DNA of 64,000 bases. It comes from Candidatus Hydrogenedentota bacterium (GTDB lineage Bacteria > Hydrogenedentota > Hydrogenedentia > Hydrogenedentales > SLHB01). The notes under the pieces are model-generated. The model was not told the origin of the DNA, made no database searches, and saw nothing but the letters and a program-made list of their open reading frames with translations. The position numbers and the translations under genes were made by a program. Of this stretch, positions 8,711-63,880 are shown piece after piece (position 1 is the first letter of the stretch; each line of letters opens with the position of its first letter). The stretch lies in the NCBI GenBank assembly GCA_045863335.1, contig BTVY01000037.1, forward strand, positions 10,653-74,652, given 5' to 3'.

Positions 8711-9583
8711 TCATGCGGCGCTGGCTGCGTGGGCGCGCTTCTCGACAATAGCTTTCAGGACCAGTGTCACCAGCGCCAATAGGGTGAGCAGCGAGGCCAC
8801 GGCAAAGGCGGCCACGAAGTTGTATTCGTTGTAGAGAATCTCGACGTGCAGCGGCAGCGTGTTGGTCTTGCCACGGATATGTCCGGATACGACCGATACG
8901 GCGCCGAACTCGCCCATGGCGCGTGCGTTGCAAAGAATGACGCCGTACAAGAGCGCCCATTTGACGTTTGGCAATGTAACCCGCCAGAAGGTCTGCCAAC
9001 CCGACGCCCCCAAGGTGAGCGCCGCCTGCTCATCTTCCGTTCCTTGTTCCTGCATTAGCGGAATCAGTTCGCGCGCGACAAAGGGGAATGTGACGAAGAT
9101 CGTCGCTAGTACGATACCCGGTACCGCGAAGATGATCTGGATGTCGCGGTCGGATAGCCACGGGCCGAGCCATCCTTGCAGTCCGAATAGCAGCACGTAA
9201 ACGAGCCCGGAGATGACCGGCGACACCGCGAAGGGCAGATCGATAAGGGTGATGAGCACGCTCCGGCCGCGGAATTGAAATTTGGCCAGCGCCCAACTCG
9301 CGGCGAGCCCGAAGATCAGATTCAGCGGCACGGATATCCCCGCAACCAAGAGCGTTAGTTTGATCGCGGAGAACGCGGCGGGTTCCCGGAAGCTCTCGAA
9401 ATACGCCTGGATACCTTTGCGAAGCGCCTCGGTAAACACGGCGAGCAGCGGCACCATGAGAAACGACGCGAGAAACAGGATAGCCAAGCCCGTAAGCGCC
9501 AGGCGCACCCACCAAGGCTCGCTGGTTGCGGCCTTAATGCGAGGCGCCGCGACGCCCATTGACGATGTAATCTGACCGGCCAC
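8711..9583 (-). CDS. cysW: Sulfate ABC transporter permease CysW
   Basis: [44 protein letters not shown]. The GTG start overlaps the cysT stop (TAGTG). Confidence 0.95.
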
Positions 9584-10425
9584 TATGCGACCCCTCCCTG
9601 GTACCGGCGCACGCTCCACCACTGCAACAGGTTGATGAGAAGCAGTAGCGCGAACGAAGCCACCAGCATCACCGCTGCGATGGCCGTTGCCCCGGCGTAG
9701 TCATACTGTTCGAGCTTCGTGATGATCAGAAGGCTCGTAATCTCCGTGCGCATTGGCATGTTCCCGGAAATGAACACGACCGATCCGTACTCGCCGATGG
9801 CGCGCGCAAAAGCGAGCGCAAATCCCGTTAGTATCGGTGGCACTAGAGGCGGAAGCAGGACTCGCAAGAAGGTCTTCCACCGCGTGGCGCCCAAACTGGC
9901 TGCCGCTTCCTCGAGTTCCTTGTCGAGATCGGCGAGCGCGGGTTGTAGTGTCCGCACGACAAATGGCAGTCCGATGAACGTGAGGGCGATACAAATGCCA
10001 AGCGGACTGAATGCCGTCTTGATGCCCAGGGGTTCGAGATACTGGCCGATCCAGCCGTTTTGCGAGTAGATGGTCGTGAGGGCAATGCCCGAAACCGCGG
10101 TTGGCAACGCGAAAGGGAGGTCCACCATCCCATCGATCACGCGCTTGCCCGGAAAGCGATAGCGCACGAGAACCCACGCGGTGATGAATCCAAATACGAT
10201 GTTGACCGCCGCGGCCACGAAGGATGCGCCAAAGGTCAACTTGTAGGAGGCCACAACCCGCGGCGCGGTCACCGCCTGCCAAAACTCCGCCCACCCCATG
10301 GTCGCTGACTTTGCGAATAACGCCGCCAGCGGGATGAGCACGATGAGACTCAGGTACACCACCGTGTATCCAAGGGTCAGACCGAAGCCCGGGAGTACGC
10401 TATGGGCCTTCCATCTTCCTGACAT
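9583..10425 (-). CDS. cysT: Sulfate ABC transporter permease CysT
   Basis: [43 protein letters not shown]; AAGGAG RBS. Confidence 0.95.
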
Positions 10426-10463
10426 TGTTGTGAAGACTCCTTTGTCCAAAGACTGTGAATGCT

Positions 10464-10536
10464 GCCCCTCCTAGCTCCCCCCCCGTACACAGGGGGAGAA
10501 TCTCGCCCCCTGGACGGGGAGGGTCAGGGTGGGGTC
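10464..10536. repeat. C-rich/G-rich REP-like hairpin element between sbp and cysT
   Basis: CTCCCCCCCGTACACAGGGGGAG followed by GGACGGGGAGGGTCAGGGTGGGG; resembles 61111-61147. Confidence 0.55.
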
Positions 10537-10626
10537 CACTATTTCATCGTCCTCAACTTGCTGACATTTGAAATACTCGAGCACGAACGCGAGTACGAAT
10601 TTGATGGCTTGTGGAACTCAATCGGG

Positions 10627-11718
10627 TTAGCCGGCTGGGGCATAGATTTCGTCGAACACGCCGCCATCGTTGAAGTGCGTCTCCTGTGCGTTCTTCCACC
10701 CGCCGAAAACGTTATCGATGGTCACGAGTTCGACTTCGGGAAACCGGGCGAGATCCGCCGGATCTGCGCTTTCAGGATTCACCGGCCGGTAGAAGTGTTT
10801 TGCAGCCAGGCGCTGACCTTCGGGGGAGTACAGGTACTCGAGGTAGGCCTGGGCCACCTCAAGGGTGCCGTGCTTCTTGGCGTTTCGGTCAACTACGGTC
10901 ACCGGCGGTTCGGCCAGAATGCTGAGGCTGGGCAGGATGATTTCAAACTTGTCCGGCCCGAGTTCGTTCACGGCCAAGAACGCCTCGTTCTCCCAGGATA
11001 GGAACACGTCGCCAATCCCGCGCTGCACAAACGTTGTCGTGCTTCCTCGTGCGCCGGAATCCAACACGGGAACGTTCTTGAGCAACGCGGCGACAAAATC
11101 GCGGGCTTTCGCCTCTGCCTTCTTCACGTCCTCGCTGAATTGCGGGTCGTGGAGTTTCTCCAAGTCGCCCAGTTCCTGTTCTAAGACGTAGGCCCAAGCG
11201 GCCAGATAGTTCCACCGCGCCCCGCCCGAGGTCTTCGGGTTAGGCGTGATCACTTCGATCCCCGGCTTAACCAGGTCGCTCCAATCCCTAATCCCTTTTG
11301 GATTGCCCTTTCGGACGAGAAACACGATCGTGCTGGTGTACGGGGCGCTGTTGTGCGGCAGCCGCGACTGCCAATCCTCGGGCAGCAACTTGGCTTTCTC
11401 CGCGATGGCGGATATGTCGTAGGCCAGCGCCAAGGTCACCACGTCTGCTTCCAAACCGTCGATTACCGCGCGCGCCTGCTTGCCCGCGCCCCCGTGAGAC
11501 TGTTCGATGGTGACGTTCTGGCCCGTCTTCTCTTTCCAATACGAGGCGAAAGCCTTGTTGAAATCCACATAGAGTTCACGTGTGGGATCGTACGATACGT
11601 TTAAGAGTTGGATATCGGCCCCGTATGCGAACACTGTCGCCGCCACAATGACAAGCACTGTCCCTCTCACTAATTCGCGCAGCCGGCCATGAATGGTTGG
11701 TAGAAATCGATTTGTCAT
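10627..11718 (-). CDS. sbp: Sulfate-binding periplasmic protein Sbp
   Basis: [51 protein letters not shown]. Confidence 0.95.
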
Positions 11719-11986: not shown

Positions 11987-13432
11987 TCAGAATTCGAACT
12001 GAAACCGTGTTTGAAATAGATCGAAGTTGCCGTCGTACCGGACGTGGTCGACTTGGTTGTGGATGTAATTCCACGTGATGCGGACGTTGGGATTGAGGTA
12101 CCAGTTCAGGCCGAGCGTAATGGAGTCTTGTTCGCCACCCCAGATGGGACGATCCGACAGGTCCACGCTGGAATAGCGCGCCGTAACTTCCCACGCGCCC
12201 CAGCCGTCCCGCATCTTCCAGTTGAAATTACGCTCGGGAATCACGCGATCGAACGATCCCCGGTCGTTGCGGTACGGGCGGTTCTCCCCGGTGAGAAAGT
12301 AACTCGCTTGAACGTAATACCCGTCAAACGCGAGATCGCCGCCGAATGTGGTCTCAACATCGGAGCGAATGTATTCGCCTTGTAGCGAGAACGGTCCGAG
12401 TACCGTTGCTGCTTCCAGGCCCAGCAGGTCTACGTCATCCGCGCGGGCGTCCCGAAGCCGGAATGACTGAGGCAGGTTGTCGGGGTCGATGTAGCGAAAC
12501 TGGGCCAGCCGCGATTCGGGACGAACTCCGTAGTTCACGCGCGCGCCGTCCGGATTCCGGAGACTGTACGCCACGCCCAGGTGCAGCAACTTTCTGCCAT
12601 CATCCGAATACCATGGAAGCCCTGTGACTCGGCCGGTAATCTGATAGCCCTGGTCCTCGTCGGAGTCGTTTCCACTCGGCCAATCGTCTGTATCCTTGAA
12701 TGCGCCTACGGCCCATGTCAGCCGCTCTTTCTTCGGCTCCCCCAAAAGAGCGTCACTGAGTTGAAGGCCCGCATTTCGCGATGGCACGAAGACATTCGCC
12801 AGCGAACGCTCGACAAAGGTCCGGTAGGGAATGGGCGTCAACTCCTCCAGACTGAACGGCTCTCGGTAATGGCCAGCGCGGAAGCTCATCTCGCGGCCTC
12901 CTCCGTATGGGATCGCCGTGTATTCCAGGTAGACGTCGCGAAACTTCGGCGTGTCCTCGCCGCTTTCCCCGGCAAAGTCGTATTCAGTCAGAAAATTGAA
13001 ATCGTCGTACAGTTTTCCCTGCAGCCGAATCCGGGCAAATCGGAAGCCGGTGCCGTCTTGCTCATCACCGACAGCACGTACAAGTTCATCATCCTGATCG
13101 AACCACGCGATGTCGTAGCCCGCGCGGGCGCGGACCCGGAGTTGGAACGCGCCGTCAGCCGAACCGATGGCAAGACCATCGGAATCGACCTTGATCTTGG
13201 GAAGCTGCTTCGCCTTTTCTGCCTCCGTCTTCTTATCCTCCTCCAATTGGACTTCAAGCTGCCTCAACTGTTTGTTCAATTCGTAAACCTGCTGTCGCAG
13301 CGACTCGACCTGCGCCGCCGAAGCGGGCACGTCTAGCGCCCCGGTATCGTTCTGAGTCTCTTGGCCCCGGACCGGGCCAGTTGCAAGCACTCCTATAGCC
13401 CCTGCGATCCAGATATGCTTCCAGGTCTCCAT
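11987..13432 (-). CDS. OprO/OprP-family anion-selective porin
   Basis: Signal peptide, N-terminal coiled coil, RFARIRLQG, EPFSLEE, GAWEVTARYS, LGLNWYLN; terminal aromatic FQFEF. Confidence 0.9.
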   Translation of the reverse strand: METWKHIWIAGAIGVLATGPVRGQETQNDTGALDVPASAAQVESLRQQVYELNKQLRQLEVQLEEDKKTEAEKAKQLPKIKVDSDGLAIGSADGAFQLRVRARAGYDIAWFDQDDELVRAVGDEQDGTGFRFARIRLQGKLYDDFNFLTEYDFAGESGEDTPKFRDVYLEYTAIPYGGGREMSFRAGHYREPFSLEELTPIPYRTFVERSLANVFVPSRNAGLQLSDALLGEPKKERLTWAVGAFKDTDDWPSGNDSDEDQGYQITGRVTGLPWYSDDGRKLLHLGVAYSLRNPDGARVNYGVRPESRLAQFRYIDPDNLPQSFRLRDARADDVDLLGLEAATVLGPFSLQGEYIRSDVETTFGGDLAFDGYYVQASYFLTGENRPYRNDRGSFDRVIPERNFNWKMRDGWGAWEVTARYSSVDLSDRPIWGGEQDSITLGLNWYLNPNVRITWNYIHNQVDHVRYDGNFDLFQTRFQFEF

Positions 13433-54659: not shown

Positions 54660-54854
54660 ATGCAAAGCGCCAAGCAATCCGCCCGCGAACTGATCGAGCA
54701 GTTGCCCGATTCCGTGACATGGGAAGATCTTATGTATGAACTGTACGTGAAGCAGAAGATCGAGGACGGTTTACGAGAATTGGACGAGGGCCGTGGAATA
54801 CCTCACGAGGAGGTAAAGAAGCGATTGCTCAACGGCTCGCATGATAAAACTTGA
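54660..54854 (+). CDS. Type II antitoxin (addiction-module component)
   Basis: MQSAKQSARELIEQLPDSVTWEDLMYELYVKQKIEDGL...IPHEEVKKR; overlaps the RelE gene. Confidence 0.8.
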   Translation: MQSAKQSARELIEQLPDSVTWEDLMYELYVKQKIEDGLRELDEGRGIPHEEVKKRLLNGSHDKT

Positions 54855-55146
54855 GTGGTCGCCCCGCGCTGAGCGCGAGCTAGCGCAATTGCGCGAGTAT
54901 ATCGCACTGGACTCCCCCCATTTTGCTCTCCTGTTTGTCGAACGGATTGTACTCTCCGTCGAAAGGCTCTCCGTCTTTCCCCGTAGCGGTCGTCCAACTC
55001 CTGAATGGGGATATAACGACCGAATTCGTGAAGTGATCGTGCAGGGTTACCGAGTCATCTACCGGATAATCGACGAAACGCACATTCAAATCGTCACGGT
55101 CGTACATGGTTCACGAAACCTGCGAATCGAACCGCCAATCCTGTAA
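54841..55146 (+). CDS. RelE/ParE-family type II toxin
   Basis: WSPRAEREL, YIALDSP, FPRSGR, IREVIVQGYRVIY, VHGSR. Confidence 0.9.
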   Translation: MIKLEWSPRAERELAQLREYIALDSPHFALLFVERIVLSVERLSVFPRSGRPTPEWGYNDRIREVIVQGYRVIYRIIDETHIQIVTVVHGSRNLRIEPPIL

Positions 55147-55157
55147 CTAACGCGCTA

Positions 55158-56498
55158 TCAAGCCGGAGCTTTGTCAAATCCCCTGGACTGCGCTCTTAAG
55201 ATTTGATAGTGCACCACGATCCCCGCAGCGATCAGGAAAAGCAGCACGTAGTAAATGGCGAAGACGGCCTCGGTCCATCCCTTAGGAGAAGCGGTGACGA
55301 GTTGGGCGATGACGTTCTGAACGATCAGGACCGTCCAGATAATCCACGCGGCGCGTGGGAACACGTTACCCTCGTAGCCTGCCGGTAGTGGACGCCTCCA
55401 GACGTAGACAATGACAGCGGCGATGCCCAGCAGCATCAGCGGCAGGATGACCATCGAGAACCGCGCGGCCCAGAGGTCCTCGTTGCCGAGATAGATGTTG
55501 GCCCAGCCTTTCAGGCCGTTGCGGATCGAAAAACCGAGTCCCAGGATCAAACCCAGATACAGGCCGAACCGTTCGAGGTTGGGCCGTTGATTGGTGAACA
55601 GCGATTTGTTGACCCTCCGCGCTTCCGCCGGGACGGGGCGGTTCACCAAAAAATACGCGACGCCGTACGCGATGCCGATGCTAATCCCGCCGGTCGATTC
55701 CCAGCAGCGCCACCAATTGAAATTGCCCCCGGGCCAGACCTCGTCCGCCCACTGCCAATTCTGCAACGCCGCCCAACCGATGCCGTTAAGGACGCCGACC
55801 GTCATGATCAGGACGACGTTCTTCCAGTCGCGCCGTCCGAATTCGTAAGCGAGAAAGCCCAGGTAAAGACCCATATGGATGATGGCGGCCCGGTTGTCGT
55901 TGATCAGACGGCGCAGATTCGGATTCGCGTCGAGGTCGTGATACCGCACTTCGAGCGAATCATAAAGTGGCAGAAAGACCTGCGGCAGATGCCGGAACAG
56001 CGCCGCTGCCAACCACGCGCCGCCAATGCCGCAGCCGATGCGGATGCCCCAATGCCAAATCGTTGTGGGCCGTACGGACCCGCACCAGGCGAGCATGCAC
56101 GCGCCGATGCCCGCCCACGGCACGCCCGCGATAAAAAGCCACAGGAATCCGTACGCCGGTGAAATCGGGACGAACTCGCCCGCGGCCGTGTTGGTCTGCA
56201 GACGGCCTTCAAAGAAGGTAGACCATTGCGCCCACCCCCGCGCGCCGGCGATCCCCATCCCCACCGTGACCGCCAGCATGATCCAGCCCGACGTGTACCG
56301 CCGCCGCTGCTCAACCACTGGTTCGCGCGCGATAAACCACCACGCCGCCCCCCACGTCACCCCCGCAAAAATGCAGCCCGCCGATCCGCCAAAACCGCTG
56401 CAACCCCGTACCGCCCACGTCATTCCCCCCAACGCCGCAAAGAGCATCGTGGGAAAGACGAGGTCATGCACGAAATCGCGTCGAGGCTGTGGGTTCAT
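55158..56498 (-). CDS. Multi-pass membrane protein of unknown function (Gly/Trp-rich)
   Basis: About 12 hydrophobic segments; AGGAG RBS. Confidence 0.75.
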   Translation of the reverse strand: MNPQPRRDFVHDLVFPTMLFAALGGMTWAVRGCSGFGGSAGCIFAGVTWGAAWWFIAREPVVEQRRRYTSGWIMLAVTVGMGIAGARGWAQWSTFFEGRLQTNTAAGEFVPISPAYGFLWLFIAGVPWAGIGACMLAWCGSVRPTTIWHWGIRIGCGIGGAWLAAALFRHLPQVFLPLYDSLEVRYHDLDANPNLRRLINDNRAAIIHMGLYLGFLAYEFGRRDWKNVVLIMTVGVLNGIGWAALQNWQWADEVWPGGNFNWWRCWESTGGISIGIAYGVAYFLVNRPVPAEARRVNKSLFTNQRPNLERFGLYLGLILGLGFSIRNGLKGWANIYLGNEDLWAARFSMVILPLMLLGIAAVIVYVWRRPLPAGYEGNVFPRAAWIIWTVLIVQNVIAQLVTASPKGWTEAVFAIYYVLLFLIAAGIVVHYQILRAQSRGFDKAPA

Positions 56499-56627
56499 GA
56501 TGAACTCCTGTCTGAATGCGAGTTGCTCGGCGCATTATGGAGGCGGCGTCGTTGAGCGCTCAAGTTTGGCGATCGGATACACAACGCGAATGGGACCATG
56601 GGCGGCGGCGACGCAACCCAAGTTCTG

Positions 56628-56686
56628 AATCCGAAGCACGAAATCCGAAACAAATCCCAATGACCAAAATCTGAATGACCAAAACA
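56628..56686. repeat. Left arm of a 7-bp-periodic inverted repeat (partner at 61471-61530)
   Basis: AATCCGAAGCACGAAATCCGAAACAAATCC (56628-56657) is the exact reverse complement of 61501-61530. Confidence 0.9.
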
Positions 56687-57025
56687 CTTTGACCGGGCTG
56701 AGGACAGCACCCCCCCAACACGTGAACGGCGGCCTACGGCAGCCCCGGATGCGGCGACTCGAATGTAGACCCGGGTGAAGCGAGGCACGAGAGGAACCAT
56801 GGGTAACGTGACCGCCCCCACCACGCAGCCCCCGAACGGGGGCCACTGAAGAGTTTCGTTCGCACGTACCGCAAGCTTAATTGTCGGACCACCAAGTATG
56901 CCTAAATGGGAGGTGATATCGGATTCTTGTTGACTCCGCACCATCTACACGTCTGGGTAGTATAATCACGTCAGATTGGGTCAACAGGAATCGCGCGTTC
57001 CACACGCAAATCAGGAAACAAAACC

Positions 57026-58042
57026 ATGGATACCATAGCCAGGGATGCGTCCCTAATGGATGAGTTGCGGATTGCACACGATCTGATTCACCGGGGGTTC
57101 GGTGAACTTCAGGAAATCGACATGGGAAACGATTTCTATCATCTCCCTCAGCAACTACTCGCCAGCGGCTTAGAACGGCTTCTAAAATGCTATTTCTGCC
57201 TCGTATTCGAAGCCAGGAATCACCAATATCCAAACTTAAGGTTTATCACGCGCTTCCGTCATGACCTACAAATGCTAAAGAGAGAGTTTGCGGAGAGTTA
57301 CTTCCACGTTACCAGCCAGCTGACGCAGGAGGACCTGGACTTTGTCAAAAACGACCAAGTTTTGGACGAAATCGTCCGTGTGCTCTCCGAGTTCGGAAAG
57401 AAAGCCCGTTACTACAATCTTGACGTCGTTACCGGAGAGGAATCTCTGCCCATTGACGCAAAAGCCGATTGGGAGAGAATCGAAAGAGGCTTACTGGACC
57501 CTGTGCCATATATGAAGGTCGAAGGTGGCGGGTCGCGCTTCCGTGAATATTACCCCGAAGTTAATGCTAGAATCATCGCGCGCCTGGAGCGCTTTGTTAG
57601 GGCCATCGCGATGCAGTTTACCTGTGGAAACCATGGCGGCAAGCTAAAGCAGTACTCTCCACTGCTCGGCAACTTTGTTTCGCTCCGCGATTCACAATTT
57701 GGGACAACCGACTATCGGCAATCCACGCTGATTCTCAAACAGCAGCGCGACACTTGGGTTCGCCGAAGCAAAGTAGAGGTACTCGCCAGCGCCTGGCCAA
57801 CTCGCCAAATTTTCCAGACAGATTTTCCCGGTGAATGGCCGTTCCGTCATGACGAAGTCGTCATTGAATGCAGGGAAAAGCTCTTCTGCATCGTCAACAT
57901 CGAAGCATACGACTTTGCACTCAACGGGGCCGCAAAAAGTCGGTTCGGTTTCCCCTTCCCGCACGATGTCGATTTGGCAATAATCGGGAAGTCAGTAGGG
58001 CCATTTATAGACATGGCGCATGCGCTGGGGTCGCCCAGATAA
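57026..58042 (+). CDS. Lower-GC hypothetical protein: HEPN-like N-terminus plus YebY/DUF2511-like C-terminus
   Basis: LASGLERLLKC...RHDL...ARYY; C-terminal WPFRHDEVVIEC...FALNGAA...KSVGPFI. Domain calls by eye only. Confidence 0.6.
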   Translation: MDTIARDASLMDELRIAHDLIHRGFGELQEIDMGNDFYHLPQQLLASGLERLLKCYFCLVFEARNHQYPNLRFITRFRHDLQMLKREFAESYFHVTSQLTQEDLDFVKNDQVLDEIVRVLSEFGKKARYYNLDVVTGEESLPIDAKADWERIERGLLDPVPYMKVEGGGSRFREYYPEVNARIIARLERFVRAIAMQFTCGNHGGKLKQYSPLLGNFVSLRDSQFGTTDYRQSTLILKQQRDTWVRRSKVEVLASAWPTRQIFQTDFPGEWPFRHDEVVIECREKLFCIVNIEAYDFALNGAAKSRFGFPFPHDVDLAIIGKSVGPFIDMAHALGSPR

Positions 58043-58176
58043 TGAGACCAATCCAACACCACTATGTGTCCAAGTGGTACCTCAACCGGTTTGTCGACCC
58101 ACAATCCGGGCTAGCTCCTATCGTTTATGAAAACGAAAGGAGAACCATTATTGTGCCTGCCGGAATCGCCCGATGA
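58042..58176 (+). pseudogene. Truncated N-terminal stub of a DUF4238-like protein
   Basis: MRPIQHHYVSKWYLNRF matches the H-Y-V-x-x-x-Y-L-x-x-F start of DUF4238. It is coupled to the upstream stop (TAATG) but ends after 44 aa. Confidence 0.55.
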
Positions 58177-58417
58177 AGTAAAGGAAGAGGACGAGCAACG
58201 GAAAAAAGCGAAAGCCAAACCCAAAGAAAAGACGAAACCCAAAGCGAAGCGCAATGCCAAGACGGAGCCAAAAGACAAGAATAGATGATGTCGCGAACGA
58301 TCAACGAGACCTCGCTACGACCAAGCGTGGCCAAAGTGCTACCCTCAGGATTGCGTGGAGAAGATTTCTGCCGCGGAGAAGGGCAAGAGAACGGACGGAG
58401 AGGATCCAGAAATCGAT

Positions 58418-59227
58418 ATGTGCGAATTTGAATCGGTAGCTAGCTTCACAATTTTTTGTGGAAGCGTCCGGAACAGAACCAGATACAACTTCGATAATGC
58501 AACAAAGAAGTTCCTCGACACTGTCCTTGAAACGGCAAAGAAACGTGTAATCGTCTTCGAGCCCGGTTTCAATCTCTGGAGAGCCCAACTTGGCTGCAGA
58601 TGGGAATGCGTGGCGGAGAATCTCAAGCAACCAAGGCCGTACGAATGCGAACGGATGAAGCCTCGAAATCTAGAGGCGACCGAAGGTCGCGTAAATGCAA
58701 AAGGTATTCCCTGTTTGTATCTCGCGACGACCTCGGATGCGGCGATAGGAGAGACTCGACCATGGGTCGGTACCAAAGTTTCCGTCGGACACTTCAGAAC
58801 GACAAAGGAGATAAGGCTTGTCAATTGTATGACGGATCGAACAGAAGACCGGTTGTCGATTTATTTCGTAGAGCCAGAGCCGGAGAAGCGCGCAGAAGTA
58901 ATATGGGAAGAGATCAACTTCGCGTTCTCAATGCCTATACAAAACACCGACTCAACCGCCGACTATGTACCGACTCAGATTATTGCGGAGAAATTTCGTC
59001 AGGCGGGATATGATGGTATCGCGTACAGTAGTTGCCTGGGCACTGGCACAAACGTCGCCCTATTTGACTTGGATGCGGCGGACATGTGCTCGTGTTCACT
59101 TCACAATGTAAAGTCCGTTTCGTACAAGCATGAAAAGTCCAAATTGAAAGGCGGACAATACGTAAATGCGGACACCCACTTGAGCGTTCATGACTGGATG
59201 CAAAAACACGTTGACAAAGAATCGTAA
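58418..59227 (+). CDS. RES-domain protein (NAD+ phosphorylase-like)
   Basis: GRVNAKGIPCLYLA (R), IGETRP (E), YDGIAYSS (S), YVPTQIIAE, NVALFD. Confidence 0.88.
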   Translation: MCEFESVASFTIFCGSVRNRTRYNFDNATKKFLDTVLETAKKRVIVFEPGFNLWRAQLGCRWECVAENLKQPRPYECERMKPRNLEATEGRVNAKGIPCLYLATTSDAAIGETRPWVGTKVSVGHFRTTKEIRLVNCMTDRTEDRLSIYFVEPEPEKRAEVIWEEINFAFSMPIQNTDSTADYVPTQIIAEKFRQAGYDGIAYSSCLGTGTNVALFDLDAADMCSCSLHNVKSVSYKHEKSKLKGGQYVNADTHLSVHDWMQKHVDKES

Positions 59228-59263
59228 CGTGAGGACCACTCATATCCCCCGAATCCTTCTCTT

Positions 59264-59447
59264 AAATCTCAAATCTGAACTCTGAAATCTTCACGAACCC
59301 AGACCCCAACTCCGCGCAGCCGTTCATCATTCATCGTTTCCCGCTCCTGACCTTCGCCAGGCTGGAGCCAGGCGCTCCCAGTACTTCCATACTCCCGTCC
59401 CGCTTCCTTCCCTGCGGGTCCGTGTCTGTCCGTGTCTGTCCGTGTCT
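59264..59447. repeat. Microrepeat patch: 7-mers, REP-like hairpin and a 10-mer x3
   Basis: AAATCTC/AAATCTG/AACTCTG/AAATCTT (59264-59291); TTCATCATTCATC; GCCAGGCTGGAGCCAGGC; (GTCCGTGTCT)x3 at 59418-59447. Confidence 0.75.
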
Positions 59448-59517
59448 TTCAAATCCGCAGTCTCCCGCCAGAAACACTGCAACACCCCGGCCGATCTCTA
59501 CAAGGAGATCTCACACC

Positions 59518-61166
59518 ATGCCAACCACCCCAATTTACACGACCCTCGGCACCCCCTGCGCCCGTTCCTGGTCCAACGACTGGATCGCCACCGTCGACGC
59601 AACCGAACGCGATCTCAACCACCGAATCTGCGGCGCCCGCCTACCCGATGGCACGCCCTGTTGCAACCAATCCGACCACCTCTCCGGACGCTGCCCCTAC
59701 CACGGCGGCTTCGACCTGACCGGCGCGCCCCCCGGCAACCGCAACCACGTCATCCACGGACTCTACTCCCGCCGCCTAAGACCCTGCACCCAAACCTGCC
59801 CCCACTGGCAAACCTGCCCAATCGCCAACACCAAAGAGCCCCAAGAGAGCCGTCATCCCCGCGCAGGCGGGGACCCATCTTCACAATTTCCCAACCCATC
59901 CGACCAATCCCACACACCCGATCCGACTGATCGGCCCGATCCGTCCGATTCTTCTCTCCAGTCTCCAGCCTCCGGACTCCAGCCTTCTCCAAATCCGCAA
60001 TCCGCACTCCGCAATCCGCAATCGAAATCTTCCCTCCAGTCTCCAGCCTCCGGACTCCAGCCTTGTCCCACTTCGTCCTATAGGTCCCATTCGTCCTATA
60101 TGTCCTATTCCCAAAACGCCAAGCCCCCGCAATCACCACCCACCTGCGTTTATCAGTTGACCGAATACAACACCGTCCTAACCGACGCCCTAGCCATCGT
60201 CGAATCCCAGCCCCATCCCAACCCCATGGGCATCCACAACGCCCACAACGTCGCCATGCTCCAGGTACTCGTCAACGCCGCCACCACCCACCTCGCCCAG
60301 GACGCGAACCTGTGGGCATCCGAAGATACTTTCGACACTCCTAACTCGAACAAGGTCCTCGCCTTCACACGCCTCATGCGCGAGTTCAGACACTCACTAA
60401 AACTCCTCCACGCACCGGGGTTGACCCCCTTGAACCGTCACAATTCCACGGGTGCACCCCCAACTGCCGAAGGCATCCTCCGCCACGCCCAGCGCATCCA
60501 ACACGACACCGGCCTCGACCCCGATTCCATCGACGCCGCCCAACTCCAACCCCAGACCCCCGAAACCCACGCCAAAGCCTTCATCCAACAAGCCGCCCTC
60601 GCCGGAGGCAAAGGCCGCGACGTAGAAATGTGCGAAGCCTTCGACAACGCCGCCCTTCTCGACGAACCCTACGCCGAATCCGAACGCAGCCACGTCTTAG
60701 CTAGCTACCGCCCGCCAGACACAGCGTCTCCGAAGAACTCGCCGAAGCCATCCTCGGCCACCTCCACATCGAACCGCCCGTACCCCAAAACAGCGCAATC
60801 ACCAACGATTCCACTGTCTCCATTCCCCCTTCGAAGAGGGACCAAGGGGGATGTTCTTCAACCAACTCGCCATCCATAGATCAAAACCACGAAGAAGAAA
60901 TCTCAATCGACACCGCCAAAGTCCTCCAGGACTACCTCGACACCCTCCGGGCCGGCGGAATACCGCCCGCAGCGTTCCCCATCGGCTCCAAAGCACGAGC
61001 CGTGGCCGAGGCGATCTATACGGGGCCACCCCACGGCGCCCAGCGTGACGTAACCCAATCGAACGCGCGCGCAGGTGTGCTCGGAGCATCCGATTGCGAG
61101 GACGTGAAGACCCCCTCCCCAGCCCTCCCCGTGGACGGGGAGGGAGTTGGTTCTCCCCCGGCGTAG
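59518..61166 (+). pseudogene. HGG-motif (HGGxSTG-like) Cys/His protein with repeat insertions and an apparent -1 frameshift near 60705-60720
   Basis: AAGGAG RBS; CGARLPDGTPC...GRCPYHGG...TGAPPGNRNHVIHGLYS. The frame from 60720 continues HSVSEELAEAILGHL...SIDTAKVLQDYLDTLRAGG to TAG at 61164-61166. Confidence 0.6.
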
Positions 61167-61453
61167 GGTTTGTCGAAAAAGATGCGAGCGTCTATGTCAC
61201 ATCGTCATCCTGAGCTTGCGAAGGATCTCATCACGCCGAGGCCTAGCTGCATAGAGATCCTTCGCAAGCTCAGGATGACGGCTGCGTCTGATGCTTCGAC
61301 AGGCTCGGTACCGTGGGAACTAAAAATCAATTTTTCTGCTTTGCTTACTCCACGTTCGTGTGCGACCGCGGCTTGGGCGTCCTCGCCCAAGAGACCCGGA
61401 GCGATGATCGGTGTGATTTGTCACGGAAAACCTTGGGCGAGGACGCCCAAGCC
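61111..61453. repeat. Stack of three unrelated REP-like hairpin families
   Basis: CCCTCCCCGT-GG-ACGGGGAGGG (61123-61144); 27-bp perfect IR CGTCATCCTGAGCTTGCGAAGGATCTC (61203-61229/61254-61280); 22-bp perfect IR GGCTTGGGCGTCCTCGCCCAAG (61370-61391/61432-61453). Confidence 0.85.
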
Positions 61454-61470
61454 ACGAGATCCCGCTCCGC

Positions 61471-61540
61471 GTTTTGGGCATTTCTCCATTTGGAACATTC
61501 GGATTTGTTTCGGATTTCGTGCTTCGGATTTCGGATTTTG
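61471..61540. repeat. Right arm of the 7-bp-periodic inverted repeat (partner at 56628-56686)
   Basis: GTTTTGGGC...GGATTTGTTTCGGATTTCGTGCTTCGGATTTCGGATTTT. Confidence 0.9.
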
Positions 61541-61687
61541 GTTCGCGTCGATAGCGCCCTGCGCCATTCCATTCCCGACGGCGCCCCGGCCAAACCACAC
61601 TTGCTAACTCCCCACGGGGGCGCGATAATGGTCGTGCAAGGTTGCTGGGCAAGCACGATAGCTACGATCCGTTCCTGGAGGACCATC

Positions 61688-63880
61688 ATGTCCGATTCCT
61701 GTTCTGCGCGGCCGGGGGTGAAATCCGGCGGGGGCTGGACTTCGATTCTGTACACGTTGCGGAAGGCGCGGCAGGCGGGCGGCATCTTCGCGTTGGCGAA
61801 GGCGATGCGCAGCAAGAACGCGTGCAAGACCTGCGCGCTGGGGATGGGCGGACAACTCGGCGGGATGGTGAACGAGCGCGGGCATTTCCCGGAGGTGTGC
61901 AAGAAGTCCATCCAGGCGATGGTGGCGGACATGCAGGGGCGGGTGCGGGAAGATTTCTTCCGCAGCTTCAGCCTGTCCGATCTGCAGGGATTCACGTCGC
62001 GGGAGTTGGAGTATTCGGGCCGTCTGGTGGAGCCGGCCGTCGCAGGTCCGGGCGACACGCATTACCAACCTATCTCTTGGGATGACGCGCTCGCGCGGAT
62101 CGTCGCGAAACTCAAGGCCACCTCGCCGGAGGATACGTTCTTCTACTTCAGCGGCCGCTCGTCGAACGAGGCCGGGTTCCTGCTGCAACTGTTCGCGCGG
62201 CAGTACGGCACGAACAACGTCAACAACTGCTCCTACTACTGCCACCAGGCTTCCGGCGTGGGGCTCGCCAGCGTGTACGGCTCCGGGACGGCGAGCGTGG
62301 TGCTGGACGACGTGGAGCATTGCGACCTGCTGTTTCTCGTCGGCGCGAATCCGGCGTCGAACCATCCGCGCTTGATGAGCACGATCGTGAACATGAAGTC
62401 GCGCGGCGGGCAGGTCGTGGTCGTCAATCCCGTTCGCGAGGTGGGGCTGGTGAATTTCAGTGTGCCGTCGAAAGTGCGGAGCCTGCTCTTCGGTTCGCCG
62501 ATCGCCGACGAGTATGTGCAACCGCACATTGGCACCGACATCGCCTTCTTTGCCGGGATCGCGAAGGCGCTCATCGAACGGGACGCGGTCGACGAGACGT
62601 ATGTCAACGAATCCTGCGAGCATTTTGACAGCGTTCGCGAATGGGTCGATGGCATCGCGTGGGAAGATATCACGGCGTCTTGCGGCGTCGATCGCGAAAT
62701 AATCGATCGCGTCACCGAACTGTACGTGGCGTCGAAGGGAACCATCTTCGCGTGGGCCATGGGCGTGACGCATCACGAGCACGGCGTACAAAACGTGCAG
62801 ATGATGGCGAATCTCGCGTTGATGCGCGGCATGTTGGGCAAGCCGCACGCCGGCCTCCTCCCCATTCGCGGGCACAGCAACGTGCAAGGCATCGGATCGA
62901 TGGGGGTGACGCCCGCGCTCAAAGCGGAAGTATTGAAGCGCTTAGAGGCGAACTTCGGTTTCACGCCGCCGTCTACGCCGGGTCTCGACACCTTGGGAAG
63001 CATGGAGCGCGCGGCGGAAGGAAAGATCCGCGTTGCCATTTGTGTGGGCGGCAACCTTTATGGATCGAATCCGGATGCGAACTATGCGCGAGAAGCTTTG
63101 GCCAAGGTCGATCTGATCGTGTATCTCAGCACGACACTGAACACGGGTCACGCGATGGGGCTCGGTAAGGAGACAATCATTCTGCCCGTGCTCGCGCGCG
63201 ACGAGGAACGGCAGTCCACCACGCAGGAATCCATGTTCAACTACGTGCGGCTGAGCGACGGCGGACCTTCGCGTTATGAAGGCCCGCGGAGTGAGGTGGA
63301 GATTGTGGCGGCGTTGGCGCAGGGGCTGTTCGATGGAGCGGGTCCTATCGATTGGCGGGCCATGGAGCAACACGACAGCATTCGCGCGGCCATTGCAAAG
63401 GTTATTCCGGGGTACGAGGCCATCGAACACGTGGCCAGCCACAAGCAGGAGTTTCAAATCGGCGGCCGCACGTTTCACGAGCCCACGTTCAAGACGCCCT
63501 CGGGCAAGGCGCAGTTTCACGTTGTCTCGCTGCCGGCGCCCCGGACGAACGGCGCACTCATGTTGATGACGCTACGTTCCGAGGGCCAGTTCAACACGGT
63601 GGTCTACGAAGAGGAAGACGTCTATCGCGGGCAGGAGCGCCGCGACGTAATTTTGATGCATCCATCGGATCGCGCGCGGCTCGGACTGGAGGTCAACCAG
63701 CCGGTCACCGTGCGGACCAGCGCGGGTACATTGAGCAACGTGCTCGTGCGCGAACTCGACATCCGCCCCGGCAACGTGGCCATGTACTATCCCGAAGCGA
63801 ACGTGTTGGTGCCGCGTTCCTGCGATCCCGCGTCGCGCACGCCCGCGTTCAAGAGCGTGCCGGTGGAGATTAAAGGGTAG
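61688..63880 (+). CDS. FdhF/YdeP-family molybdopterin oxidoreductase
   Basis: GGAGG RBS; CKTCALGMGG, EVCKK, SGRSSNEA, NNCSYYCHQASG, GANPASNHPR, RGHSNVQG, RSEGQFNT, TPAFKS. Confidence 0.93.
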   Translation: MSDSCSARPGVKSGGGWTSILYTLRKARQAGGIFALAKAMRSKNACKTCALGMGGQLGGMVNERGHFPEVCKKSIQAMVADMQGRVREDFFRSFSLSDLQGFTSRELEYSGRLVEPAVAGPGDTHYQPISWDDALARIVAKLKATSPEDTFFYFSGRSSNEAGFLLQLFARQYGTNNVNNCSYYCHQASGVGLASVYGSGTASVVLDDVEHCDLLFLVGANPASNHPRLMSTIVNMKSRGGQVVVVNPVREVGLVNFSVPSKVRSLLFGSPIADEYVQPHIGTDIAFFAGIAKALIERDAVDETYVNESCEHFDSVREWVDGIAWEDITASCGVDREIIDRVTELYVASKGTIFAWAMGVTHHEHGVQNVQMMANLALMRGMLGKPHAGLLPIRGHSNVQGIGSMGVTPALKAEVLKRLEANFGFTPPSTPGLDTLGSMERAAEGKIRVAICVGGNLYGSNPDANYAREALAKVDLIVYLSTTLNTGHAMGLGKETIILPVLARDEERQSTTQESMFNYVRLSDGGPSRYEGPRSEVEIVAALAQGLFDGAGPIDWRAMEQHDSIRAAIAKVIPGYEAIEHVASHKQEFQIGGRTFHEPTFKTPSGKAQFHVVSLPAPRTNGALMLMTLRSEGQFNTVVYEEEDVYRGQERRDVILMHPSDRARLGLEVNQPVTVRTSAGTLSNVLVRELDIRPGNVAMYYPEANVLVPRSCDPASRTPAFKSVPVEIKG

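What the first reader, a model, noticed from the sequence alone, without database searches (positions are those of the whole stretch)
56200..62100. Local strand-skew inversions centred on repeat hot spots, with polarised microrepeats
Seen (by eye, not computed): the + strand is strongly C/A-rich at 56220-56450 and 59250-61030, then G/T-rich from ~61130 through the first ~400 bp of the FdhF gene, including synonymous positions. The same C-rich to G-rich flip occurs near 785 inside the first sulfatase, so there it is independent of gene direction. The 7-mers follow the polarity: C/A forms (AAATCCG, CTCCAGT, CATTCAT) lie 5' of a switch and G/T forms (CGGATTT, TGATGAA) lie 3' of it. Inference: a localised, symmetric, strand-specific mutational or DNA-synthesis process acts at these sites, for example repeated breakage and repair, or templated repeat addition. 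This may be an undescribed genome-diversification system.
Basis: partly seen in the sequence, partly recalled or inferred. Interest (0 to 1): 0.7.

Follow-up and report, generated by a model that had tools for sequence, protein, structure and literature searches.

The report
Strand-skewed small-terminase-like gene at skew jump
The C-rich stretch is one copy of a phage-derived small-terminase-like gene family whose copies carry a very strong one-strand base bias and sit where the chromosome's background strand bias flips, so the bias belongs to the gene family and not to the short repeats around it.

Summary
The main observation holds. Window 59250-61030 has GC skew of -0.3 to -0.5, against a genome sd of 0.067 for 1-kb windows.

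The tract is a frameshifted solo copy of a multicopy gene, 59518-61166 (+). It encodes an HGG zinc-ribbon plus a small-terminase-like (TerS-like) domain. All four copies in this genome share the bias wherever they lie, and they are the four most skewed long ORFs. G is avoided at synonymous sites and in the untranslated leader.

Across the phylum, 57 copies range from -0.90 to +0.90 in four-fold-site skew. The codon patterns are mirrored, even between paralogs of one genome. This points to a DNA-strand process, not to selection on codons.

Copies also sit at upward jumps of the background skew: 24 of 28 copies, 12 of 14 genomes. REP and microrepeat loci elsewhere show no such jump, and 7-mer orientation does not follow skew genome-wide.

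Repeat-centred templated addition or diversification is not. The mechanism is inferred only: single-strand exposure, perhaps origin-like.

The scan had no earlier hit on this family. It had noted the orphan terminase module of this genome (e1-733287), which contains one copy.

The parts
55158..56498 (-). Integral-membrane protein gene. Its 5' end (56199-56498) is G-rich on its own sense strand, which gives the C-rich + strand at 56220-56450.
   Evidence: Translation. Four-fold sense skew is +0.43 in the first 100 codons. This gene lies next to the oxidoreductase gene in relatives G105 and G106.
56670..61598 (.). 4.9-kb segment absent from the orthologous site of relative G105. It holds an unknown gene, a RES-domain gene, the TerS-like gene and REP-like elements.
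   Evidence: In G105:C340 the two flanks are 174 bp apart. G106:C35 keeps only a C-rich 3' remnant of the TerS-like gene at this site.
58355..59227 (+). RES-domain protein gene with an unknown partner gene at 57026-58042. Neither has a match in same-genus genomes.
   Evidence: Pfam RES, E=9.4e-17. No match for query 9027-11228 in the genus search.
59240..59517 (+). C-rich, G-poor untranslated leader built of microrepeats: 7-mer TCTGAAA x4.4 and 10-mer GTCCGTGTCT x3. The last ~45 bp, with the ribosome-binding site, are conserved among copies.
   Evidence: The 230 bp upstream has skew -0.36 here, and -0.42 and -0.43 in two other copies.
59518..61166 (+). Solo copy of the HGG zinc-ribbon plus small-terminase-like gene family (C-type strand bias). 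It is read in two frames because of a 1-bp deletion in a C run near 60710. Frame 1 stops at 60879. The conserved frame continues from 60705 to 61166.
   Evidence: Paralogs share 80-89% nt identity. Four-fold skew is -0.77 before the shift and -0.41 after it.
59830..60130 (+). Variable linker made of genome-wide short repeats read in frame: a REP-like hairpin at 59850-59881, 7-mers (TCTCCAG, AATCCGC) and an 18-mer at 60065-60110.
60822..60859 (+). REP-like hairpin (131 other loci in the genome) inserted in frame in the second linker. It is absent from the C42 copy and doubled in the C51 copy.
61105..61538 (.). Repeat-rich spacer: a REP hairpin at 61105-61160, two long inverted repeats at about 61203-61283 and 61353-61455, and the 7-mer array TTTCGGA at 61498-61538. 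The array is the inverted partner of 56631-56661.
61688..63880 (+). It starts the G-rich domain.
   Evidence: Pfam Molybdopterin and Molydop_binding. Four-fold skew is +0.37 in the first 133 codons and +0.13 in the rest.

Best explanation
SHOWN
- The C-rich tract is a frameshifted solo paralog of a phage-derived small-terminase-like gene family of Hydrogenedentota.
- Its A+C-rich, G-poor sense strand is a property of the family, not of this site. All four copies in the genome have it, in either orientation.
- The bias covers synonymous sites and the untranslated leader.
- Across the phylum, copies form a mirrored continuum, from 80% C to 86% G at four-fold sites, and this changes often between sister paralogs.
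- Copies lie at upward (origin-type) jumps of the background GC skew.

INFERRED
- One DNA strand of the transcription unit is repeatedly exposed as single-stranded DNA, for example in a stable R-loop or during origin-like unwinding.
- The exposed strand collects C>T and A>G changes, so it becomes G+T-rich and the other strand A+C-rich.
- Which strand is exposed differs between copies.
- The same activity, or outward-moving forks started there, would give the flanking skew switch.
- The short repeats are unrelated REP-type and tandem elements that are tolerated in the gene's linkers and in the spacers.
For: - Four of the 7 most skewed regions of the genome are paralogs.
- These four are the four lowest of 3023 ORFs of 400 codons or more. 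Four-fold C is 0.60-0.68 and G 0.10-0.12, against a background of 0.40 and 0.35.
- G is avoided where C cannot be used: AAA 81%, CAA 76% and GAA 85%, against 36%, 35% and 53% in the background.
- Leaders are skewed too.
- The codon patterns are mirrored. C/(C+T) at two-fold sites is 0.8-0.9 in C-type copies and falls to 0.29-0.44 in the strongest G-type copies.
- The skew state changes at least 8 times on the tree.
- Opposite extremes occur within one genome: G082 has -0.69 and +0.90.
- The downstream flank minus the upstream flank is positive in 24 of 28 copies, with mean +0.108. Random positions give mean 0, sd 0.037. Twelve of 14 genomes are positive.
- The flank difference is flat out to 9 kb and holds for flanking ORFs of both orientations.
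- The sharpest jump in 400 kb of G093 (-0.16 to +0.18) lies at a copy.
- TerS identity rests on four points. HGGxSTG genes lie just upstream of the terminase large subunit (TerL) gene in a phage and a phage-like plasmid. The family ORF abuts TerL in G095. The C42 copy lies 1.4 kb upstream of TerL. Weak fold and feature matches point to small terminases.
Against: - No direct evidence exists for R-loops, single-stranded DNA or initiation.
- No DnaA-box cluster lies at the locus.
- GC content at four-fold sites is unchanged, so the net effect looks like a G-to-C swap. Transitions alone explain this only if combined with the genome's GC pressure.
- Terminal-branch parsimony shows C being lost now (45 C>X against 13 X>C). 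In this clade the bias may therefore be decaying, not being made. Parsimony is biased in skewed sequences.
- The gene's polarity correlates neither with flank skew (rho 0.04-0.25, not significant) nor with neighbour orientation.
- 4 of 28 copies show no jump, and one G093 copy sits inside a uniform domain.
- Why this one protein family should be affected is unexplained.
Confidence: 0.5

Rival explanations
1. Selection on the transcript. The mRNA is kept G-poor (A+C-rich) so that it cannot fold, or so that termination factor Rho silences it unless it is translated. The skew is then a functional RNA property.
For: The bias covers the leader as well as the codons. An A+C-rich RNA cannot self-pair. 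C>G tracts are the known Rho substrate (recalled; similar readings appear in scan notes e1-273517 and e1-223904).
Against: Sister paralogs have the mirror-image G+T-rich sense strand, up to +0.90. One RNA-level function does not predict this. The state flips at least 8 times on the tree. This reading does not explain the flank jumps.
Confidence: 0.12
2. Foreign composition. The copies are recent arrivals from a phage or element with strongly asymmetric replication, and they have not yet drifted to host composition.
For: The family is phage-derived. Copies lie near defence and toxin-antitoxin genes. The terminal-branch counts suggest loss of C. The window copy is part of an insertion/deletion polymorphism.
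Against: The family is old and vertically spread in the phylum: 32 of 135 genomes, 19 of 66 genera. Paralogs within a genome differ by 10-50% in protein and still reach opposite extremes. A copy was already at this very site before G000, G105 and G106 split. No match covering more than 21% of the query was found in 50,697 phage and 72,556 plasmid records.
Confidence: 0.13
3. The flank jumps are rearrangement scars. Family copies lie at ends of inverted or translocated segments. The gene's own skew is a separate matter.
For: In G093 the pattern + + [- - -] + + between 1,699.5 kb and 1,809 kb looks like a 109-kb inversion with a copy at one end. Dispersed paralogs are natural recombination substrates. 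The window locus differs in content between relatives.
Against: Inversions make equal numbers of upward and downward jumps, but copies sit at upward ones in 24 of 28 cases. The two ends in G093 share no repeat: only 53-65 bp weak hits. With the copies masked, G000 has 7 upward and 0 downward jumps at 15 kb and threshold 0.10, and 14 against 6 at 10 kb. Downward jumps could hide at contig breaks.
Confidence: 0.15
4. Repeat clusters are sites of repeated breakage and repair or templated repeat addition, forming a genome-diversification system.
For: Microrepeats and REP hairpins are dense at the locus and inside the gene's linkers, and they differ between copies.
Against: The same repeats at 128 other loci show no skew jump. 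Their orientation does not follow skew. No reverse transcriptase was found. The skewed sequence is conserved coding sequence, not repeats.
Confidence: 0.03

Closest known systems
Phage small terminase subunits (TerS) of headful-packaging phages, whose pac site lies inside the terS gene (P22, SPP1, Sf6; recalled), and HGGxSTG-domain genes upstream of terminase large subunit genes
   Same: N-terminal HGG zinc-ribbon motif. Helical core with weak matches to small terminases. Position upstream of TerL for one copy in G000 and one in G095, as in Pasteurella phage Pm86 and plasmid pTG31302.
   Different: Most copies are solo, dispersed, multicopy and chromosomal, with no phage genes around. They are 330-580 aa, against about 200 aa. 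There is no Pfam or PHROG match. Extreme mirrored strand bias is not a known TerS trait.
Strand asymmetry of animal mitochondrial DNA (the heavy strand left single-stranded during replication; recalled)
   Same: Magnitude and kind of bias: G nearly absent and A+C favoured at synonymous sites of genes on one strand, attributed to deamination of the exposed strand.
   Different: Here the bias is confined to a 1.5-2 kb gene unit inside a normal chromosome, and its polarity differs between copies.
R-loop-prone GC-skewed regions and R-loop-primed initiation (ColE1 origin, E. coli oriK/constitutive stable DNA replication, immunoglobulin switch regions; recalled)
   Same: Strong GC skew over a transcription unit. 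An upward skew switch in the flanks, as expected if forks leave the site.
   Different: No R-loop or initiation data exist. Such sites are not known to be tied to a protein family or to occur as natural secondary origins in wild-type bacteria.
Upward skew jumps at replication origins with gradual decline between them (mammalian N-domains, recalled; multiple origins next to initiator genes in archaea, PMC4010727, abstract start in a search listing only)
   Same: More sharp upward than downward jumps in G000. Skew is strongest next to the jump in G093.
   Different: This is a bacterium with a canonical dnaA. Only 4 of the upward jumps in G000 carry a family copy. The assembly is fragmented.
REP elements with RAYT transposases, and Rickettsia palindromic elements inserted in frame in genes (recalled)
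   Same: About 35-bp hairpins in 100 or more copies. 11 Y1-transposase-like matches. In-frame insertions in the TerS-like gene and in a sulfatase.
   Different: These explain the repeats only, not the skew.

Membership tests
Phage small terminase subunit (TerS) | Gene directly upstream of the terminase large subunit gene | tested here: inconclusive
   Met for the G095 copy, whose ORF runs into a TerL-like ORF. Nearly met for G000 C42, which lies 1.4 kb upstream of TerL (phrog_2, E=1.7e-20) with a Y1-transposase-like ORF between. Not met for the window copy or the C1 and C51 copies, whose neighbours are unrelated.
Phage small terminase subunit (TerS) | Sequence-profile match to a curated TerS family | tested here: not met
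   No Pfam match. No PHROG match for P0002, P0003 or P0004. No PDB sequence match below E=0.069.
Phage small terminase subunit (TerS) | TerS fold (helical oligomerisation core after a DNA-binding N-terminus) | tested here: inconclusive
   AlphaFold model pLDDT 86. BFVD hits to proteins named small terminase have E=0.045-0.97 and probability up to 1.0, and the best rows (E=1.7e-3) are unnamed. HK97 small terminase 8pop_A gives Z 7.5 over 93 residues, tied with unrelated helical proteins. An Atlas Terminase_4 cluster scores 0.81, a lead only.
Phage small terminase subunit (TerS) | Binds pac/cos DNA and activates the large subunit | not testable with these tools
   Needs biochemistry.
HGGxSTG domain proteins (NCBIfam NF041373) | Profile score over the curated cut-off (29 bits) | tested here: not met
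   19.3-23.6 bits, E=3e-5 to 7e-4, over profile positions 1-28 of 38. tblastn gives 40-57% identity over 47-72 aa (13-21% of the query) to annotated HGGxSTG genes.
Bacterial replication origin (oriC-type or secondary) | Upward switch of GC skew | tested here: met
Bacterial replication origin (oriC-type or secondary) | Cluster of DnaA boxes | tested here: not met
   8 matches to TTATCCACA with up to 1 mismatch in 64 kb, against 5.3 expected. None lies between 51 kb and 64 kb. The motif is recalled from E. coli. dnaA itself is on contig C19.
Bacterial replication origin (oriC-type or secondary) | Copy-number maximum in growing cells | not testable with these tools
   All runs found are kept as contigs, which give no usable depth.
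REP/RAYT repeats | Short palindromic units in many copies plus Y1-transposase (RAYT-like) genes in the genome | tested here: met
   131, 30 and 13 loci for three hairpin types. 11 matches to Y1_Tnp. This applies to the repeats, not to the skewed gene.
Diversity-generating retroelement or other reverse-transcriptase-based system | Reverse transcriptase gene | tested here: not met
   0 matches to RVT_1 in a genome that is 99.4% complete.
Rho-utilisation (rut) type C>G tract | Long C-rich, G-poor, untranslated RNA | tested here: inconclusive
   The composition fits for the leader 59240-59517. Most of the tract is an open, conserved reading frame, and G-type paralogs exist.

The most novel reading that the evidence does not exclude
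Dispersed small-terminase-like genes mark, or create, secondary initiation sites of a strand-polar DNA process on the chromosome. The process could be R-loop- or protein-primed replication, or initiation of packaging and transfer by the domesticated terminase. This would give these bacteria a multi-origin-like, sawtooth skew landscape, and it would drive the genes' own sequence to mitochondria-like strand bias of either polarity.
Probability: 0.13. Interest if true: 0.9.

Novelty: new variant of a known kind. Interest (0 to 1): 0.62.

Why it matters
If the bias is mutational, this gene family is a natural reporter of a strong, local, strand-specific DNA process in an uncultured phylum. The process is strong enough to move synonymous sites from 80% C to 86% G between sister genes.

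If the skew jumps reflect forks leaving these sites, the work would give candidate secondary origins in a bacterium. That can be tested directly by marker-frequency sequencing.

If neither holds, the result still corrects the reading. The compositional island is a paralogous phage-derived gene, and the repeats are bystanders. It also documents in-frame REP insertions in proteins of this phylum.

Tried and rejected
- Amino-acid composition as the sole cause of the bias at 56220-56450 and in the C-rich gene: rejected, because four-fold sites carry the bias.
- Position-in-gene effect: rejected.
- Optimal-codon selection: rejected. A-ending codons replace G-ending ones, and G-type copies mirror the pattern.
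- Terminal inverted repeats or target duplications around the 1.6-kb unit: none seen. Homology runs from about 45 bp before the ATG to the 3' end of the gene (about 61034 in the window), 130 bp short of the stop.
- Conserved neighbours of the copies: none.
- Polarity against neighbour orientation: downstream neighbour convergent in 7 of 15 C-type and 2 of 6 G-type copies. This gives no signal, and the gene calls were crude.
- Polarity against flank skew: no correlation.
- The other three extreme-skew regions (C19, C58, C88) are not family members. C19 is a glycosyltransferase in a polysaccharide gene cluster. C58 and C88 were not followed further.
- The other upward jumps in G000 show no common gene by ORF listing. 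They were not scanned against Pfam.
- Public runs: all 24 are kept as contigs. An RNA-library run holds 61% of the words, but its listed pieces lie on the flanks, not on the gene. Neither transcription nor depth can be read from this.
- The contigs laid over 60710 carry the extra C. They also carry other differences, so they may come from paralogs. The frameshift is therefore neither confirmed nor refuted.
- Literature: 0 papers for 'HGGxSTG' and 0 for 'Hydrogenedentes' plus 'GC skew'. The 36 papers found for GC skew and multiple origins were seen only as a listing of 15, and none was read.
- The scan's own index has no look-alike of the protein.
- dN/dS among the G000 paralogs is 0.47-0.73, and 0.07-0.40 in other pairs. 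This is uncertain, because extreme codon bias depresses dS.

Full report
**1. What is at the coordinates**

The + strand is strongly C-rich from about 59250 to 61030. GC skew is -0.28 to -0.52 in every 200-bp window, with A>T.

In the whole genome (6.75 Mb, 105 contigs, GC 0.60), 1-kb windows have mean skew 0.004 and sd 0.067. Only 24 of 26,651 windows reach |0.3|, and they merge into 7 regions. This tract is one of them.

The tract is an open reading frame on the + strand:
- It starts with ATG at 59518 and is open to 60879 (453 aa).
- A 1-bp deletion in a C run near 60710 shifts the frame. The conserved frame continues from 60705 to a stop at 61164-61166.
- Whether the deletion is real or an assembly slip could not be settled.

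**2. The skew belongs to a gene family, not to the site**

Four of the 7 extreme regions are copies of the same unit of about 1.6 kb: C1, C37 (this window), C42 and C51. They share 80-89% nucleotide identity, and one lies on the other strand.

The three other copies are intact, at 490, 529 and 577 aa. Homology begins about 45 bp before the ATG and ends about 130 bp before the stop, near window 61034. The flanks and neighbours are unrelated.

The four copies are the four most negative of 3023 ORFs of 400 codons or more. Their whole-ORF skew is -0.385 to -0.403, and the next ORF is at -0.298.

The composition shows avoidance of G and T on the sense strand, not optimal-codon use:
- At four-fold sites C is 0.60-0.68 and G 0.10-0.12, against 0.40 and 0.35 in the background.
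- Where C is not an option, A replaces G: AAA 81%, CAA 76% and GAA 85%, against 36%, 35% and 53%.
- NNG codons fall to 4-15%, from 26-44%.
- The untranslated 230 bp upstream is skewed as well: -0.36 here, and -0.42 and -0.43 in two other copies.

**3. What the gene is**

No Pfam or PHROG family matches. NCBIfam HGG_STG matches below its cut-off.

Distribution:
- The protein search gave 106 relatives. The few that carry names are from Hydrogenedentes/Hydrogenedentota.
- 32 of 135 genomes of the phylum have the family, usually in several copies.

Structure:
- The conserved parts are a cysteine-rich N-terminal HGG domain, a helical domain and a short C-terminal motif. Variable linkers separate them.
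- An AlphaFold model of a compact member has pLDDT 86.
- Its helical core gives weak but repeated matches to small terminases. BFVD rows named small terminase have E=0.045-0.97, and the best rows (E=1.7e-3) are unnamed. HK97 TerS 8pop_A gives Z 7.5. An Atlas Terminase_4 cluster scores 0.81.

Gene context is stronger evidence:
- HGGxSTG genes lie immediately upstream of the terminase large subunit (TerL) gene in Pasteurella phage Pm86 and in an A. baumannii phage-like plasmid.
- In G095 the family ORF runs into a TerL-like ORF.
- In this genome the C42 copy lies 1.4 kb upstream of a TerL gene (phrog_2, E=1.7e-20), with a Y1-transposase-like ORF between them.
- That module is the orphan terminase noted earlier by the scan (e1-733287).

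The window copy and the C1 and C51 copies are solo.

**4. The surprise: mirrored bias in the family**

In 57 copies of 220 aa or more, four-fold GC skew runs continuously from -0.90 to +0.90.

| Copy type | Four-fold sites | C/(C+T) at two-fold sites | G/(A+G) at two-fold sites |
|---|---|---|---|
| C-type | C-rich (up to C 0.80) | 0.8-0.9 | 0.13-0.25 |
| Strong G-type | G 0.79-0.86, C 0.04-0.06 | 0.29-0.44 | 0.87-0.97 |

The pattern does not follow the gene tree or the host genome:
- Opposite extremes occur in one genome. G082 has -0.69, -0.53, -0.10, +0.34 and +0.90.
- G096 and G109 show the same spread.
- On the protein tree the state changes at least 8 times for C-type and at least 8 times for G-type.

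A mirror-image bias that ignores the coding sense and includes the leader fits a DNA-strand process. The changes expected are deamination-type, C>T and A>G, on one strand. It does not fit selection on translation or on one RNA property.

Counter-evidence: terminal-branch parsimony in the clade of this genome shows net loss of C, with 45 C>X against 13 X>C. The bias may therefore be decaying here. Parsimony overcounts common-to-rare changes in skewed sequences.

**5. The flip in the flanks is real and general**

In all four contigs the background skew, in 5-kb windows with the copy masked, is negative on one side of the copy and positive on the other.

Over family copies from 14 genomes:
- 28 of 37 copies found in the fetched 8-20-kb loci had at least 3 kb on both sides.
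- Downstream minus upstream skew on the gene's sense strand is positive in 24 of 28. The mean is +0.108, Wilcoxon p=8e-6.
- Random positions in this genome give mean -0.001, sd 0.037 and a 99th percentile of 0.106.
- Per genome, 12 of 14 are positive, p=0.0017. Related genomes are not independent.

The difference has these properties:
- It is a plateau out to 9 kb on both sides.
- It holds for flanking ORFs of either orientation:

| Flank | Co-oriented ORFs | Opposite ORFs |
|---|---|---|
| Upstream | -0.042 | -0.089 |
| Downstream | +0.057 | +0.050 |

- It is unrelated to the gene's own polarity.

In a 400-kb stretch of a 2-Mb contig of G093, the sharpest jump (-0.16 to +0.18) lies at a family copy. 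A second copy there lies inside a uniform domain.

With the copies masked, this genome has more sharp upward than downward jumps: 7 against 0 at 15 kb and threshold 0.10, and 14 against 6 at 10 kb. Downward jumps may hide at contig breaks.

An upward jump is the polarity expected where forks diverge. dnaA itself is on contig C19. No DnaA-box cluster lies at this locus.

**6. This locus in relatives**

In G105 and G106 the membrane-protein gene (55158-56498, minus strand) and the oxidoreductase gene (from 61688) are neighbours.
- The 4.9 kb between them in the window (56670-61598) is absent from G105.
- G106 keeps a C-rich 3' remnant of the family gene.
- A family copy is therefore old at this site and is decaying in all three genomes.
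- The RES gene pair is specific to this genome.

Both old neighbours have G-rich synonymous sites at their 5' ends. Four-fold sense skew is +0.43 for the membrane-protein gene and +0.37 for the oxidoreductase gene. These values lie at about the 98th and 97th percentiles of gene starts, and the genome-wide 5' effect is only about 0.05.

**7. The repeats**

Inside and around the gene lie pieces that match many other loci:
- REP-like hairpins: 59850-59881 (30 loci), 60822-60859 (131 loci) and 61105-61160 (13 loci).
- 7-mer arrays.
- A 10-mer array.

They are read in frame in the linkers and differ between copies.

The flip near 785 is an in-frame insert of the same microrepeats in a minus-strand sulfatase.

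The genome has 11 Y1-transposase-like (RAYT-type) matches and no reverse transcriptase.

The repeats do not explain the skew:
- At 128 repeat loci elsewhere with full flanks, none has a flank difference of 0.1 or more, and the means are near 0.
- The orientation of CGGATTT follows local skew in 52% of 1320 loci, p=0.16. Smaller motif sets give 46-78% with weak or no significance.

**8. Reading**

Shown:
- A phage-derived gene family carries an extreme, mirrored, unit-limited strand bias.
- Its copies sit at upward skew jumps.

Inferred:
- One strand of the unit is repeatedly single-stranded, through an R-loop or origin-like unwinding.
- Outward-moving forks, or a related polar process, shape the flanks.

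None accounts for both the mirrored bias and the one-sided excess of upward jumps. No direct evidence for the inferred mechanism exists, and why this family is affected is open.

Papers were seen only as search listings. Statements about mitochondrial asymmetry, R-loop origins, N-domains, pac sites and Rickettsia elements are recalled, not read here.

Noticed in passing
window 800-960 and 1460-1700: A minus-strand sulfatase (641-2788) carries two in-frame inserts built of the same microrepeats and a REP-like hairpin. They give low-complexity Pro/Ser/Thr-rich linkers and a local + strand skew of +0.55.
   Followed up: partly
G000 contig C42:11734-13168 (L002): A Y1-transposase/RAYT-like ORF (12304-12633) lies between the TerS-like copy and the terminase large subunit gene. 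So does a 97-codon C-rich ORF (12861-13154, skew -0.44) that contains a 49-bp match to the family's 3' end. This suggests the module was split by an insertion.
   Followed up: partly
window 56631-56661 and 61498-61527: A 30-bp motif (G form GGATTTGTTTCGGATTTCG...) occurs as an inverted pair flanking the 4.9-kb segment that G105 lacks. The left copy is also present at the empty site of G105. Each copy lies upstream of a gene in that gene's sense orientation. There are 16 loci genome-wide.
   Followed up: partly
window 57026-59227: A RES-domain gene and an upstream 338-aa gene without any family match have no counterpart in five same-genus genomes. A ParE toxin gene lies at 54841-55146.
   Followed up: no
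G000 contig C1:292847-294811 (L001 6847-8812): The C1 copy of the family lies next to a Thoeris-like pair: SIR2 plus STALD/SLOG, and a ThsB-type TIR.
   Followed up: no
G000 whole genome: The skew landscape looks sawtooth-like. Sharp upward jumps are followed by gradual declines, for example on C1 between 113 kb and 295 kb. There are upward jumps without a family copy at C4 (about 46-52 kb), C5 (99 kb), C6 (150 kb) and C1 (113 kb).
   Followed up: partly
G000 C14:23458-23931 and C69:4950-5396: Two further matches to the DnaA ATPase domain lie inside long ORFs (775 and 927 aa), besides the canonical dnaA at the start of C19.
   Followed up: no
G000 C58:29251-30500 and C88:2001-3000: Two more 1-kb regions have skew below -0.33 and are not family members. 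The whole 35-kb contig C58 is negative.
   Followed up: no
window 61203-61283 and 61353-61455: Two long, near-perfect inverted repeats lie in the spacer before the oxidoreductase gene. Parts of them recur at many loci in same-genus genomes.
   Followed up: no
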